A DNA stretch of 64,000 nucleotides from Octopus vulgaris (GCA_951406725.2 OX597820.1:58900001-58964000); one strand, 5' to 3'. Positions 7,007 to 28,660 are shown, counted from the stretch's first letter. Program-made: numbers and translations. The notes: generated from the sequence alone by a model not told the origin.

Positions 7007-7260
7007 TTTATTCTTTTACTTGTTTCAGTCATTTGACTGCGAACATGCTGGAGCACAGCCTTTAGTCGAGGAAATCGCCCCTAGTACTTCTTCTTTGTGA
7101 GCTTAGTACTTATTTTATCGGTCTCTTATGCCGAACCGCTAAGTTATGGGGTCGTAAATACAACATCGTTTGCCAAACGATAGTGGGAAGACAAACACAC
7201 ACACACACATGCACATACACTCATACACACACACAAATGTATGTATGTATATATATATTA
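7007..7260 (-). mobile_element. 3' part of a SINE (same family as 38854-39248)
   Basis: Shares GTGCTCCAGCATG..GCAGTCAAATGACTGAAACAAGTAAAAG 3' end and CGGTTCGGCA..AGAGACCGATA body with 38854-39248. Confidence 0.75.
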
Positions 7261-7751
7261 TGTATCTATATATATATATATATATATATATATATATATA
7301 TAAATTAAATAAGCGTAGAAATTGATATTAATCAATTAAAACCAGTGGCTTAGCATATTTTTTTTAAAATCCGAAGATTAAAAATTGTTTTACATACAAA
7401 ATTTAGAGGACTGACCACTATATGCTAAACATAGACATCAAATCGCCATTACCACGAAGAATGTGTTCTCAAGAAAAATCTCAGAAAAAAAAAACAAAAT
7501 GTAAAAATAAGCAAGACAAATGAAAATATACGAAATAAAAAAAATGATTACCTATGTACCATTGGTTTCACGTGTTTGTATTTACGTGTATGGACATGCA
7601 AACATCTGCATGGTAGTTTCCGATCTCAGCGTGCCAAAGTGAAGACATTTGAAAGATACACTTAAATATAATTTGTAGAACTTTATACATGCTGGATTTC
7701 GGTTGAGCGTTCTGTATCTAGTTCTGGAAATTATGTTTTGTAAACGACAGA

Positions 7752-7825
7752 CTATGCTGATGATCTTGCAGATGTTTGCGTGTTCATACACGTAAATATT
7801 AACAAGTGAAACCAATGGTACATAG
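7752..7825 (+). ncRNA. Type I hammerhead ribozyme motif, canonical core
   Basis: CTATG-CTGATGA-(T CTTG...CAAG T)-GAAAC-CAATG-GTA-CATAG: stem I CTATG/CATAG, GUA cleavage triplet. Confidence 0.8.
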
Positions 7826-8054
7826 GTAATTGTTTATTATTTCGTATATTTTCATTTGTCTTGCTTATTTTTACATTTTGTTTTTTGTCTTTTTGCTGAG
7901 ATTTTTCTTGAGAAAACATTCTTTGTGGTAATGGCGATTTGACGTCTATGTTTAGTGGTCAGTCCTCTAAATTTTGAATGTAAAACAATTTTTAATCTTC
8001 GGATTTAAAAAAAATATGCTAAGCCACTGGTTTTAATCGATTAATATCAATTTC

Positions 8055-25398: not shown

Positions 25399-27204
25399 GA
25401 CACCTTCAGGGAAGCATGTATGAGACTTGGCCTTCTAGAGGATGACTCCCAGTGGGACGCCACGATGGCAGAGGGTGCTTTACTGCAAATGCATTCGGCC
25501 CTACGACATCTTTTCGCAATCCTTCTTCAAAAATGTCAGCTTAGTGATCCACTAAGTCTCTGGATGAAATACAGGGATGACATGTCGCACGACTTCTTAC
25601 GTACGGCTCAGCAACACTGCCCTTCTGCCGAGATCACGTTCACCAACTTCATTTACAATTTTGCGCTCATTCAACTCGAAGACGCTGTCATCGATATGGG
25701 TGGGTCTGCTTTAACAGAGTACGGCCTTCCACCACCCACACGTGAACACGCCAATGTTATGTCTGCTGAATTGTTACGCGAAACTTCCTACTGCATTGAG
25801 GAACTGCACCAGTACGTCCAAGATAATGAACCACGGCTGCTTCCAGACCAGCGCATAGCCTACAACACCATCGTAGACTCTGTCAGACAGCAACGTGGGG
25901 GGATTTTCTTCCTTGATGCACCCGGCGGCACTGGCAAAACCTTCGTCACTAAACTAATTCTGGCAGAGGTCAGACGCAACACGGACATTGCCCTGGCTGT
26001 AGCTTCCTCTGGTATCGCGGCCACGTTGCTTCCGGGTGGCAGAACCGCCCACTCTGCCTTCAGACTCCCGCTCGATCTGGCAAAGTCCGAGTCACCTATC
26101 TGCAACATCGCCAAGAACTCAGAACAGGCCGACATTCTGCGCAGATGCAAACTCATCGTATGGGACGAGTGCACTATGGCACACAAAGGCGCCCTTGAGG
26201 CACTGGACAGGTCCCTGCAAGACATCAGAGACTCTACGGCCCCCATGGGAGGATTAACTTTACTTCTTTCTGGAGACTTCAGGCAGACTCTACCTGTTAT
26301 TCCAAAAGGAACCCGTGCCGATGCCGTGCGCGCGTGCCTTAAGTCGTCAGCTCTTTGGGCACATGTGCGGCCCTTGCACCTCCAAACTAACGTGCGCGCG
26401 CAGTTAATTGGTGACAGCGGATCTGCTGCATTCTCCAGGGACCTCTTATCGCTCGGTGAAAATAGGATGCTGTCTGATGCGGATGGCTACGTTCAATTGG
26501 ACTCACTTTGCACCATTGTCGACACCCCTGCTAGCCTCCGGGACGCTGTCTTCCACGACCTACAAAACAATTTACGCGACCTAAAATGGCTGGCAGGCAG
26601 AGCTATTCTCGCACCCAAAAATACAACCGTCAACTCCATCAATATCCAGCTACTTGAAGCTATTCCTGGTGATGTCCACATCTACAAATCTATAGATAGG
26701 ACAGCAGACCCCGCCCAGCTTGCCGATTATCCTGTTGAATTCCTGAATTCACTTGAACCGCCAGGCCTGCCACCACACATCCTGAAGTTAAAAGTCGGTG
26801 CGCCCATTATGCTCATCAGGAATTTGGTTCCACCTAAACAGTGCAACGGCACACGTTTGGTTGTGAAACATTTGGCACCACATTTAATAACGGCCACAAT
26901 ACTTACCGGTTGTGGGAAGGGAGAGGACGTCTTCATTCCACGGATGCACCTTCAACCGTCGGGCGCTGACCTACCAATCCACTTCAGGCGTTCTCAGTTT
27001 CCTGTTAAACTCTGCTTCGCAATGTCCATCAATAAATCCCAAGGCCAAACGCTACAAGTCGCTGGGTTACATTTGGGCGAACAGTGCTTCGCCCACGGTC
27101 AACTCTACGTGGGCTGTTCACGCGTTGGGAGGCGCAATGATGTTTTCATGTTTTCGCCCAAACGGACAGCTAGGAACATCGTATATACAGAAGTATTCCA
27201 GTGA
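25399..27204 (+). CDS. Helitron RepHel C-terminal PIF1-family (SF1B) helicase, in frame with the upstream ORF
   Basis: FFLDAPGGTGKT, IVWDECTM, GDFRQTLPV, FAMSINKSQGQT, HGQLYVGCSRV; 21 nt in-frame between the TGA and ATG 25420. Confidence 0.9.
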   Translation, partial: DTFREACMRLGLLEDDSQWDATMAEGALLQMHSALRHLFAILLQKCQLSDPLSLWMKYRDDMSHDFLRTAQQHCPSAEITFTNFIYNFALIQLEDAVIDMGGSALTEYGLPPPTREHANVMSAELLRETSYCIEELHQYVQDNEPRLLPDQRIAYNTIVDSVRQQRGGIFFLDAPGGTGKTFVTKLILAEVRRNTDIALAVASSGIAATLLPGGRTAHSAFRLPLDLAKSESPICNIAKNSEQADILRRCKLIVWDECTMAHKGALEALDRSLQDIRDSTAPMGGLTLLLSGDFRQTLPVIPKGTRADAVRACLKSSALWAHVRPLHLQTNVRAQLIGDSGSAAFSRDLLSLGENRMLSDADGYVQLDSLCTIVDTPASLRDAVFHDLQNNLRDLKWLAGRAILAPKNTTVNSINIQLLEAIPGDVHIYKSIDRTADPAQLADYPVEFLNSLEPPGLPPHILKLKVGAPIMLIRNLVPPKQCNGTRLVVKHLAPHLITATILTGCGKGEDVFIPRMHLQPSGADLPIHFRRSQFPVKLCFAMSINKSQGQTLQVAGLHLGEQCFAHGQLYVGCSRVGRRNDVFMFSPKRTARNIVYTEVFQ

Positions 27205-27568
27205 AGACAAGACATTGCAACGTCCACATGCACCTTCGTTCCCTGGAGGGAAAGGACTACATTGGGATTAGTCGTTGCCTACTAGGGGCTCTTACATACC
27301 CGGGCAACGCCGGGCTATGCTGCTAGTATATATATATATATATATATATATATATATATATATATAGATACATAATATATATATACATACATACATTTGT
27401 GTGTGTGTATGAGTGTATGTGCATGTGTGTGTGTGTGTTTGTCTTCCCACTATCGTTTGGCAAACGATGTTGTATTTACGACCCCATAACTTAGCGGTTC
27501 GGCATAAGAGACCGATAAAATAAGTACTAAGCTCACAAAGAAGAAGTACTAGGGGCGATTTCCTCGAC

Positions 27569-28660
27569 ATTGACCGCACACATACGTGGCACGCACACGC
27601 ATGTATTATATTTATGTAGGTTATGTATGTGTGTGAGTGTAGTGTGTGTGTGTGTGTGTGTGTGTGTGTGTGCGCGCGTTGTGTGTGTGTGTGTGCGCGC
27701 GTGTGTATATATATGTGTGTGTGTGTGTGCACTGTGTGTGTGTGTGCACTGTGTGTGTGTGTGCACTGTGTGTGTGTGTGTGTGTGCGCGTTGTGTGTGT
27801 GTGTGTGCACGTGTGTATATATGTGTGTGTGTGTGTGCACTGTGTGCCTGTGTGTGTGTGAGCATTGTGTACGTGTGTATGTATTTACATGTGTATTTGT
27901 TTTATATATATATATATATATATATATATATATATATATGTGTGTGTGTTATTTGTGTATATGCATGGGATGTGTGTATATGTGAGTACATTGTTTGTGT
28001 GTGTGTGCGGTATGTAGAGATATATTTGAGTGTGTACGCTTGAAGGGGAACCATACACAAAACTGGGTACACATCTTTTTCTCTCAATTCAACTTTTCTG
28101 CTAAAACAAACAGGTCAGTAAAAACAAATTCTCGCCTTCATTTCAAAATATTCTGAGATGTATAAAATATCCATTTTAATTTTCTCTGTCAATATTACAA
28201 ACTTTCTCACCAAACTATTACACTTCCTTATGTCTTTAACATGTCCTTTCTTCCAAAGACTGTATATATATACATGTAATGTGACAATTTGCGACAACCA
28301 ATAATTAACGCAACCAAATTTCCAATAATATATTTGTTTTATTCTTTTCTGCCAATTTTTCCAAATATTCTCATCACACTATTGAACTTTTTTATGCCCT
28401 TAACATATCTCTGTTACCAAACACTATATTTATACATGTAATGTGACAATTATGTATAAAAAAACATTTTTGAATTCATAATATTCAATTTGACAATTAT
28501 GTAAAAAAACTTTTTTGAAACCATAATATTCAATGTTACTTTTGACAATCTTTTACCAAAGAGTGAAACCGGTTAAGTAAATAAACATCTTTTAAATTGC
28601 ATTTTCAAACCTTCTTTCATATATAATTCCACTCGTGCGATACCCCACAACTCAACTTTT
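27569..28660 (+). mobile_element. Second direct copy of the Penelope pseudo-LTR with an internal deletion
   Basis: Starts ATTGACCGCACACATACGTGGC (=14691); jumps from ~15126 to ~16419 at a GCT microhomology (28038-28040); ends like 17040. Confidence 0.85.
28536..28580 (+). ncRNA. Hammerhead-like motif (U3-A8 variant), best-preserved copy
   Basis: Stem I TTACTT/AAGTAA perfect; core TTGACAA; stem II TCTTT/AAAGA plus 2 extra nt; GAAAC-CG-GTT; AATAAA follows. Confidence 0.55.

What the first reader, a model, noticed from the sequence alone, without database searches (positions are those of the whole stretch)
7065..28660. Penelope element at the centre of a giant inverted duplication of ~4.6 kb of flanking DNA, bracketed by pseudo-LTRs
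Seen: the usual inverted 5' pseudo-LTR (12554-12974 plus 11695-12550) does not stop at the element end. The mirror symmetry continues through ~4.6 kb of unrelated flank (SINEs, MITE, other hammerhead elements; 7065-11695 vs 17040-21182 + 27327-27568). The right-hand copy ends abruptly mid-SINE exactly where another direct pseudo-LTR begins (27569). The arms differ by scattered substitutions and only the right arm has the Helitron. Inference: a Penelope-mediated event (3' read-through transduction or template switching) copied host DNA into a multi-kb palindrome, giving a composite pLTR-cargo-pLTR unit loosely reminiscent of giant PLE-based Terminons.
Basis: partly seen in the sequence, partly recalled or inferred. 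Interest (0 to 1): 0.75.

Follow-up and report, generated by a model that had tools for sequence, protein, structure and literature searches.

The report
Penelope-linked fold-back of flanking DNA
In what looks like an octopus genome, a jumping gene that targets TA repeats sits in the middle of a mirror-image copy of 4 kb of its own neighbouring DNA, most likely made when the cut DNA end folded back during insertion, a kind of damage known for human LINE-1 elements.

Summary
The palindrome is in the assembly as described. About 4.2 kb of repeat-rich flank (7065-11269) recurs inverted (17208-21182 + 27327-27568, split by a Helitron), 1.2% diverged. It surrounds a 5'-truncated Neptune-like Penelope element (PLE; RT + GIY-YIG; 84% identical to an Octopus bimaculoides protein). 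The central unit is textbook: inverted tail-less pLTR, ORF, pLTR, tail. The odd part is the copied flank, which starts at the (TA)n target and ends bluntly at the 5' end of a third pLTR. All three PLE 3' ends abut (TA)n. Best reading (0.55): a DNA-level fold-back of the cut target end during PLE integration, sealed by a PLE cDNA, like L1-mediated fold-backs. Read-through transduction is less likely (0.13). It is not a Terminon. That repeat reproduces the inner junctions and arm-specific variants, which argues against two alleles being misjoined, but no reads were available (misassembly 0.15). Verdict: a single-locus new variant of known PLE/L1 insertion damage.

The parts
7065..11269 (+). Left arm: original flank (SINE-like repeats, a small palindromic hammerhead-bearing element, other repeats); the sequence continues intact to the left of 7065
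7002..7194 (.). SINE-like repeat that is whole on the left and cut at the 7065 equivalent on the right; an 83% paralog lies at 38857-39010 (the SINE label is inference)
7318..8054 (.). Small palindromic element with a hammerhead-like motif (core 7757, cut after 7820); present in both arms (20423-21161), so older than the duplication
11270..11694 (.). (TA)n tract, left half of the target site
11695..12553 (-). Inverted pLTR (PLE 16998 to 16178). The tail is absent in this copy (4-7 nt of it appear in the two other assembled copies). A 25-nt filler at 12529-12553 matches PLE 16196-16213 plus 14547-14553
12554..12974 (-). Inverted 3' fragment of the PLE ORF (14551 to 14131), 1 difference in 421
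12975..14576 (+). 5'-truncated PLE ORF, 533 open codons: RT, CX4CxxC linker, GIY-YIG with internal cysteines; starts at residue 239 of a 772-aa homolog
14577..16998 (+). 3' region and direct pLTR, rich in CA/TG microsatellite-like arrays
15273..15805 (.). Nested piece between TA tracts: 163-bp inverted arms (15273-15435 / 15491-15653, 3 mismatches), each with a hammerhead-like motif; probably a fragment of another PLE family; lies inside both internal deletions
16922..16954 (+). Minimal hammerhead-like motif with the U3-A8 core variant and palindromic stem III; also at 28542-28574; altered in the left copy
16999..17039 (+). About 40-nt 3' tail, present on both direct pLTRs
17040..17207 (.). 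(TA)n tract between the tail and the right arm
17208..21182 (-). Right arm, inner part (inverted copy of about 11269 to 7300)
21183..27326 (+). Helitron inserted into a TA tract of the right arm; the Rep-helicase ORF is split by one TGA at 25396-25398
27327..27568 (-). Right arm, outer part (inverted copy of about 7302 to 7065)
27569..28659 (+). Third, direct, 5'-truncated pLTR: PLE 14691-15127 joined at a 3-nt microhomology to about 16417-17039, with hammerhead-like motif and tail
28660..28811 (.). (TA)n tract, right half of the target site
40406..44699 (-). Inverted third copy of the left side (12827 to 8685) at the start of the sequence after the gap; 32 of 32 diagnostic sites match the left arm; mosaic junction at about 44661-44720; probably an artefact
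44661..64000 (+). Second copy of 6845-26042 (98-99.4%), with differences concentrated near the gap; probably a redundant contig end

Best explanation
A DNA-level fold-back of the target site, caused by and sealed during integration of a (TA)n-targeting Neptune-like PLE. Shown in the sequence: three PLE pieces each have their 3' end on a (TA)n tract and a truncated 5' end. Two of those tracts belong to copies of the same left flank and one to the right flank. The extra flank copy begins at the (TA)n, contains no mirrored copy of the central ORF, and is joined without microhomology to the 5' end of the third pLTR. Inferred: (1) the GIY-YIG endonuclease cut both strands in the (TA)n. (2) The right end primed reverse transcription on the tail, giving the third pLTR. 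(3) The left end was duplicated head-to-head, either by snapping back on self-complementary (TA)n and copying about 4.2 kb of its own strand, or by replication into two sister ends. (4) The free end of that copy, at 7065, was end-joined to the cDNA. (5) The central (TA)n received the ordinary 'inverted pLTR + truncated ORF + pLTR + tail' insertion, either in the same event (two cDNAs bridging sister ends) or soon after. I slightly favour 'soon after'. (6) A Helitron later entered the right arm, and the arms drifted about 1% apart. The product is a dead, local scar, not a mobile unit.
For: Geometry and junctions. Similar ages: cargo 49/3,946 (1.24%); pLTR cores centre-left 6/585, centre-third 8/621, left-third 7/585; no pair differs from the cargo (Fisher p 0.84-1.0). 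The central unit matches the published PLE layout (inverted 5'-truncated copy, optional 30-40-bp tail at one end; PMC8557442 passages; PMC3846280), so the left pLTR needs no donor role. A PLE protein cleaves and extends both strands of AT-rich DNA in vitro (PMC11167929 passages). For L1, fold-backs with cDNA at the junction, inversions of the reciprocal end and captured local DNA are reported (PMC7058536 passages; PMC11702581 passages and section 7). Fold-back priming at a break beside an inverted repeat is shown in yeast (PMC10622511 abstract). The 25-nt filler built from two nearby PLE stretches points to template switching. The third pLTR is somewhat further from the central copy (15/838) than the left copy is (9/1,152; p = 0.059), a hint of two steps. 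The inner junctions and arm-specific variants recur in the second assembled copy.
Against: No reads and no empty orthologous site were available, so adjacency rests on the assembly, which is visibly troubled here (gap, redundant copy, mosaic junction). The outer junction 27568|27569 is seen only once in the window. A blunt join cannot tell end-joining of DNA from an end-to-end jump of the RT onto an RNA. (TA)n targets hide any target-site duplication. The tail boundary of the left pLTR differs among its three assembled copies (0, about 4 and about 7 nt). Substitutions are clustered (18 of 48 gaps of 10 nt or less vs 5.6 expected; 31 events, 0.8%), so the dating is rough, and the one-step and two-step versions are not separated (p = 0.059). 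Polarised sites lean to the right arm (11 vs 6 of 17 resolved, 2 unresolved), which an RT-copied arm would also give. The snap-back step itself leaves no direct trace.
Confidence: 0.55

Rival explanations
1. Misassembly: the arms are two alleles, or two separate loci, joined through (TA)n or through the PLE's own inverted repeat (for example a heterozygous inversion with a pLTR at one breakpoint).
For: A 1.2% difference with indels and a private Helitron is what alleles can look like. Long TA tracts (425-567 bp on the left) are weak points. The region has a gap, a redundant copy and a mosaic fold-back junction. PLE inverted structures are known to trouble assemblies (PMC8557442). The left tail junction differs among copies.
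Against: The second assembled copy has the same centre, left-deletion, tail and Helitron junction 40-mers and the same phasing at 49 of 51 sites. It differs from the first at only 2 substitutions in 9,658 non-microsatellite sites over 54000-64000, far below the arm difference. The left flank is tied to the deleted pLTR three times (32 of 32 sites in the third copy). The copies may share reads, so this is not independent proof. Even under this rival, a flank copy ending at a pLTR must exist somewhere.
Confidence: 0.15
2. RNA-templated local transduction: a transcript reading out of a PLE through (TA)n into the left flank was reverse transcribed after a template jump from the third pLTR and reinserted beside its source.
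For: Orientation fits read-out from the minus-strand pLTR. A blunt junction fits end-to-end template jumping. In A. vaga, host DNA of 0.9-1.5 kb lies between the ORF and the 3' pLTR of Pen1, and an intron-containing gene is framed by pLTRs with a target-site duplication; read-through and template jumps are proposed there (PMC3846280). Slightly more derived changes lie in the right arm (11 vs 6).
Against: If the left copy were the donor of the whole right side, it must later have lost the tail, 1.6 kb and the ORF 5' part. There is no poly(A) or ribozyme cut site at 7065|27568. A-to-G on the putative RNA strand is 4 of 49, against 5, 7 and 8 for the other transitions, although the cargo holds a 290-bp hairpin; this test has low power. 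Reinsertion exactly at the source site needs a strong cis preference. No cargo copy next to a PLE was seen elsewhere, but only this window could be searched.
Confidence: 0.13
3. PLE-independent rearrangement: a fragile (TA)n broke and folded back, or an inverted duplication arose by host repair, and PLE cDNA merely patched the free end or inserted later in TA tracts.
For: (TA)n is self-complementary, and fold-back priming needs no transposon (PMC10622511 abstract). TA tracts in this window attract many insertions: a Helitron and the palindromic pieces at 15273 and 31903.
Against: The outer breakpoint coincides to the base with a pLTR 5' end and has no TA tract on that side, so the pLTR cDNA must have been present when the junction formed. 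Only the origin of the first break is open.
Confidence: 0.12
4. A Terminon-like mobile composite (pLTR-cargo-pLTR) that moves as a unit, the copy at 44661-64000 being a real second copy.
For: The unit occurs twice in the window. pLTR-framed cargo can be mobilised in trans (PMC3846280).
Against: The second copy includes flank outside the pLTR frame (from 6845), starts next to a 100-N gap, and shows an error gradient: 17 substitutions + 21 indel events in 4,523 sites nearest the gap vs 2 + 6 in 9,658 sites far from it. Its ORF is frameshifted. The ORF is 5'-truncated in both copies, and the cargo has no ORF of 120 aa or more outside TA tracts and the Helitron.
Confidence: 0.05

Closest known systems
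Canonical EN+ Penelope-like elements with inverted 5' pLTR (Neptune/Nematis type; PMC8557442, PMC3846280)
   Same: RT + C-terminal GIY-YIG, CX2-5CxxC linker, 5' truncation, inverted 5'-truncated copy at the 5' end, tail at one end, hammerhead-like motif in the pLTR, microsatellite target.
   Different: Here the mirror symmetry runs on through 4.2 kb of the target flank, and a third pLTR closes the copy.
pLTR-framed host DNA in Adineta vaga (Pen1 spacers; Pen3a-framed NRPS gene; PMC3846280)
   Same: Host DNA lies between two direct pLTRs, with an inverted pLTR at the 5' side.
   Different: There the cargo is not described as the adjacent flank, and the NRPS insertion has an 8-bp target-site duplication and an empty allelic site. 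Here the cargo is the element's own flank, inverted, forming a palindrome, with no gene and no visible target-site duplication.
L1-mediated fold-back inversions and reciprocal-end inversions (PMC7058536; PMC11702581)
   Same: Head-to-head duplication of the target flank with retrotransposon cDNA at the junctions; cDNAs in opposite orientation joined to each other; local DNA captured at insertion junctions.
   Different: Those are somatic or experimental events made by L1; the cancer cases reach megabases and start breakage-fusion-bridge cycles. This is a PLE event at (TA)n, limited to 4.2 kb, and old enough to show about 1% divergence and a nested Helitron, so presumably inherited.
Terminons (Athena-RT giant PLEs; source paper not held; features recalled except where cited)
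   Same: PLE origin, pLTRs with hammerhead motifs, many kilobases.
   Different: Terminon RTs belong to the otherwise endonuclease-less Athena group (PMC8557442) and are telomere-linked and multi-ORF (recalled). This element has a fused GIY-YIG, one truncated ORF, non-coding cargo and a (TA)n target.
Penelope at Drosophila virilis rearrangement breakpoints (PMC3681739 passages)
   Same: Association of Penelope with rearrangement breakpoints; rearranged copies with long inverted repeats.
   Different: That association is cytological, and the inverted repeats lie within the Penelope body; the passages read describe no inverted copy of flanking DNA.

Membership tests
EN+ Penelope-like element | Single ORF with RT and C-terminal GIY-YIG endonuclease | tested here: met
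   Pfam RVT_1 at aa 29-207 and GIY-YIG at aa 441-528, both above cut-off; 75% identity to a 772-aa homolog from residue 239
EN+ Penelope-like element | [quoted passage not shown] | tested here: met
   Read from the translation: two cysteines between the GIY- and YIG-like halves, two later histidines; definition in PMC8557442
EN+ Penelope-like element | pLTRs in direct and inverted orientation; 30-40-bp tail at one end | tested here: met
   the tail is about 40 nt on both direct copies and absent or partial on the inverted one
EN+ Penelope-like element | Minimal hammerhead in the pLTR | tested here: inconclusive
   A U3-A8 variant motif lies at 16922 and 28542; 6 hits in 1-40305 vs 4 in 30 shuffles, and the variant is published. 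The pattern was written after seeing the motifs; a stricter scan and Rfam found none; the folding z-score is about 0; activity is untested
Neptune clade | CX2-5CxxC linker between RT and EN | tested here: met
   C-X4-C-X2-C upstream of the GIY-YIG; shared with Nematis
Neptune clade | RT phylogeny grouping with named Neptune references | not tested
   No named reference sequences were held; hence 'Neptune-like'
Naiad/Chlamys | N-terminal GIY-YIG | tested here: not met
   The endonuclease is C-terminal
Terminon | RT of the Athena group, without fused endonuclease | tested here: not met
   GIY-YIG fused to RT; definition from PMC8557442
Terminon | Telomeric repeats beside the hammerhead; attachment to chromosome ends | tested here: not met
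   No telomere-like array among 88 tandem-repeat rows; the 3' ends abut (TA)n; chromosome position unknown
Terminon | Multiple co-mobilised ORFs (recalled) | tested here: not met
   The cargo has no ORF of 120 aa or more outside TA tracts and the Helitron
3' transduction | Cargo derives from DNA downstream of a donor element and is reinserted elsewhere through RNA | tested here: inconclusive
   Orientation is compatible; no poly(A), no editing excess, and the copy is adjacent to its source; the rest of the genome could not be searched
Retrotransposon-mediated fold-back inversion | Two copies of one flank joined head-to-head through cDNA, with breakpoints at the endonuclease target | tested here: met
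   Both arms start at the same (TA)n and are linked only by PLE sequence
Retrotransposon-mediated fold-back inversion | Copy-number step and junction-spanning reads | not testable with these tools
   No reads available
Helitron (right-arm insert) | 5' TC, 3' hairpin + CTAG, A^T insertion, Rep and PIF1 helicase domains | tested here: met

The most novel reading that the evidence does not exclude
PLEs that cut both strands of self-complementary (TA)n routinely make inherited, multi-kilobase fold-back palindromes of host DNA, so the familiar inverted pLTR is only the smallest case of a general palindrome-making mechanism. In TA-rich cephalopod genomes this would be a recurrent source of local inverted duplications and would give direct genomic evidence on the unresolved second-end step of PLE integration.
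Probability: 0.25. Interest if true: 0.75.

Novelty: new variant of a known kind. Interest (0 to 1): 0.45.

Why it matters
How PLEs form their tandem and inverted ends is stated to be unresolved (PMC8557442). A case where the inversion extends into the target flank, with three 3' ends all on (TA)n, suggests that both target ends, and a duplicated end, can each be extended. That turns the question into a genome-wide count: how often is the flank of a (TA)n-inserted PLE mirrored? It would also extend retrotransposon-made fold-backs from L1 in tumours and cell lines to an inherited invertebrate locus. As it stands it is one locus, with no gene in the cargo and no read support.

Tried and rejected
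The Rfam scan gave only 31 sub-threshold matches (miRNA and scaRNA models, mostly over microsatellites) and no hammerhead; ARAGORN found no tRNA genes. The first hammerhead scan found nothing because it required a 3-bp stem III; the relaxed scan was written after the motifs were seen by eye. Folding did not support the hammerheads as stable monomers (5 of 6 sequences with z near 0). Splicing as the cause of the two internal pLTR deletions was rejected: no GT-AG at the joins. The missing 5' part of the ORF is nowhere in the window (tblastn with 3 of the 120 listed homologs). An RNA-editing signature in the right arm was not found (low power). Divergence could not separate one-step from two-step origins. 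The copy at 44661-64000 was considered as a real transposed or amplified unit and judged a probable redundant contig end; a real nested fold-back at 44661-44720 is not excluded, since the junction has about 13 nt of inverted near-identity. The Terminon paper was not held. The prokaryote, phage and plasmid collections were not used, as irrelevant to an animal locus; no eukaryotic genome or read collection was available, so other copies, the empty site and the species stayed unchecked. Supplementary figures of the L1 preprint (S9, S10), which describe the closest events, were not seen.
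Full report
Setting. The window is animal DNA, about 38% GC, full of TA and CA microsatellites, with one 100-N gap at 40306-40405. The best named homolog of the central ORF is an Octopus bimaculoides protein (84% over 68% of the query), so an octopod host is likely. That is an inference, and the species was not pursued.

Self-BLAST shows the left flank 7065-11269 repeated in reverse at 17208-21182 and 27327-27568. Over 7303-11269 the arms differ at 51 of 3,946 aligned sites; 49 are reproduced by a second assembled copy and 2 were dropped. 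There are also several indels, including 16 bp missing on the right and 21 bp missing on the left. The outermost 130 bp are identical. A 6.1-kb Helitron with 5' TC, 3' hairpin-CTAG, an A^T site and Rep and PIF1 domains splits the right arm only; its ORF has one stop at 25396-25398. Where the changes can be polarised with in-window paralogs, both arms carry derived changes (11 right, 6 left, 2 unresolved).

The central element is an ordinary PLE insertion. The ORF (12975-14576) has RT and C-terminal GIY-YIG domains and a C-X4-C-X2-C linker, and begins at residue 239 of a 772-aa homolog, so it is 5'-truncated and dead; the missing part is not in the window. Directly upstream lies an inverted copy of the ORF end and pLTR (11695-12974). 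Downstream lie a long 3' region, a pLTR and a tail of about 40 nt ending at (TA)n. This layout, the optional tail and the microsatellite bias are those described for canonical PLEs (PMC8557442, passages; PMC3846280, parts 1-4 of 5). A minimal hammerhead-like motif with the U3-A8 core lies at 16922-16954 and 28542-28574; this variant is reported in Schistosoma PLEs (PMC4209133, passages). The scan was tuned after inspection, and Rfam and a stricter scan missed the motif, so its status is inconclusive.

What is unusual is the copied flank and its two ends. The inner end is the (TA)n target itself. The outer end is a blunt join, with no shared base on either side, between the SINE-like repeat at the 7065 equivalent and PLE coordinate 14691, the truncated 5' end of a third pLTR. 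That pLTR ends with its tail on another (TA)n, after which unrelated right flank follows. So there are three PLE pieces, each with its 3' end on (TA)n: two on copies of the left flank and one on the right flank. The right arm holds no mirrored copy of the central ORF, so the flank was copied before or together with the central insertion (inference). The two outer pLTRs carry different internal deletions (14552-16177; about 15128-16416), both spanning a nested 163-bp hairpin. The left deletion has a 25-nt filler made of two nearby PLE stretches, a sign of template switching.

Ages are similar. The pLTR cores differ by 6/585, 8/621 and 7/585, and the cargo by 49/3,946, with no significant difference. 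The inverted ORF piece differs by only 1/421 (p = 0.086 against the cargo). The third pLTR is 15/838 from the central copy, against 9/1,152 for the left copy (p = 0.059), a weak hint that it came from another template or time. Cargo substitutions are strongly clustered (18 of 48 gaps of 10 nt or less; expected 5.6; 0 of 10,000 simulations), so about 0.8% is a fairer count of events and all dating is rough.

Mechanism. The best account is a DNA-level fold-back at a PLE-cut (TA)n. The right end primed the third pLTR. The left end was duplicated head-to-head, by snap-back on self-complementary TA or by replication into sister ends. The free end was joined to the cDNA, and the central (TA)n carries a standard insertion made then or soon after. 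The junction geometry is shown; every enzymatic step is inferred by analogy. A PLE protein cleaves and extends both strands of AT-rich DNA in vitro (PMC11167929, passages). L1 produces fold-backs with cDNA at the junction, inversions of the reciprocal end and captures of nearby DNA (PMC7058536, passages; PMC11702581, passages and section 7). Breaks beside inverted repeats prime fold-back synthesis in yeast (PMC10622511, abstract). Read-through transduction remains possible, and host DNA between pLTRs is documented in A. vaga. But it needs reinsertion at the source, or a donor that later lost three pieces, and there is no poly(A), no ribozyme site at the cargo end and no A-to-G excess (4 of 49; low power).

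Assembly quality. Beyond the gap, 44661-64000 repeats 6845-26042, and 40406-44699 is a third, inverted copy of the left side that matches the left arm at 32 of 32 diagnostic sites. Differences from the first copy fall with distance from the gap (17 substitutions + 21 indel events in 4,523 sites; then 3 + 9 in 3,386; then 2 + 6 in 9,658). The second ORF is frameshifted, and the junction at 44661-44720 is a collinear mosaic of two weakly similar sequences. These features fit a low-coverage, redundant contig end, although a real nested fold-back is not excluded. For the finding this cuts both ways. The locus is hard to assemble. Yet the centre, left-deletion, tail and Helitron junctions were each assembled at least twice with identical 40-mers and with the same phasing, which two misjoined alleles would not easily give. 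The outer junction occurs once, because the window ends first.

Comparison and novelty. The element is an EN+ PLE, Neptune-like by its linker (clade not tested by tree). It is not a Terminon: the endonuclease is fused, there is one ORF, and no telomeric array was found (the Terminon paper was not held, and the multi-ORF feature is recalled). It works like an L1-type fold-back and looks like A. vaga pLTR-framed capture. Six searches of the held library (listings, plus the passages cited) returned no description of a PLE flanked by a multi-kilobase inverted copy of its own target flank; subscription journals and supplements were not covered. Verdict: real in the assembly, probably real in the genome, a new variant of known retrotransposon insertion damage, at a single locus with non-coding cargo. 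Interest 0.45; up to 0.75 if a genome-wide count shows it is routine.

Noticed in passing
window 40306-64000: After a 100-N gap, the sequence repeats 6845-26042 and begins with an inverted copy of 12827-8685; differences fall with distance from the gap. Probably a redundant contig end with a chimeric tip; a real nested fold-back with a 1.8-kb spacer is not excluded.
   Followed up: yes
window 15273-15805: Nested palindromic piece between TA tracts in the PLE 3' region: 163-bp arms, each with a hammerhead-like motif with a long stem II insert; probably a remnant of another PLE family.
   Followed up: partly
window 7318-8054 (and 20423-21161): Palindromic element with about 290-bp arms and a hammerhead-like motif; an 85-bp internal stretch (7606-7690) recurs at 8554-8638.
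   Followed up: partly
window 31903-32185: Near-perfect 141-bp-arm hairpin with almost no loop, between two long TA tracts; weak (73%) similarity to 9699-9800; no hammerhead hit.
   Followed up: partly
window 21183-27326: Nearly intact Helitron (about 1,600 codons, one in-frame TGA) with STPR repeats near the N-terminus; likely young. A diverged Helitron helicase fragment lies at 2795-3346 (minus strand).
   Followed up: partly
window 667-2717, 29054-31267, 34123-37844: Three LINE-type RT remnants; the one at 34123-37844 (minus strand) also has an endonuclease ORF and is 70% identical to the first at DNA level.
   Followed up: no
window 3564-4049: 165-bp tandem repeat, 2.9 copies, 93% matches.
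   Followed up: no
window 9247-9274 and 10203-10233 vs the right arm: Arm differences come in tight clusters (5 in 28 bp; 5 in 31 bp), suggesting patchy conversion from other repeat copies or multi-base mutations.
   Followed up: partly
protein search: Several PLE homologs carry bacterial-symbiont names (Thiodiazotropha, Solemya gill symbiont), probably host contamination of symbiont assemblies.
   Followed up: no
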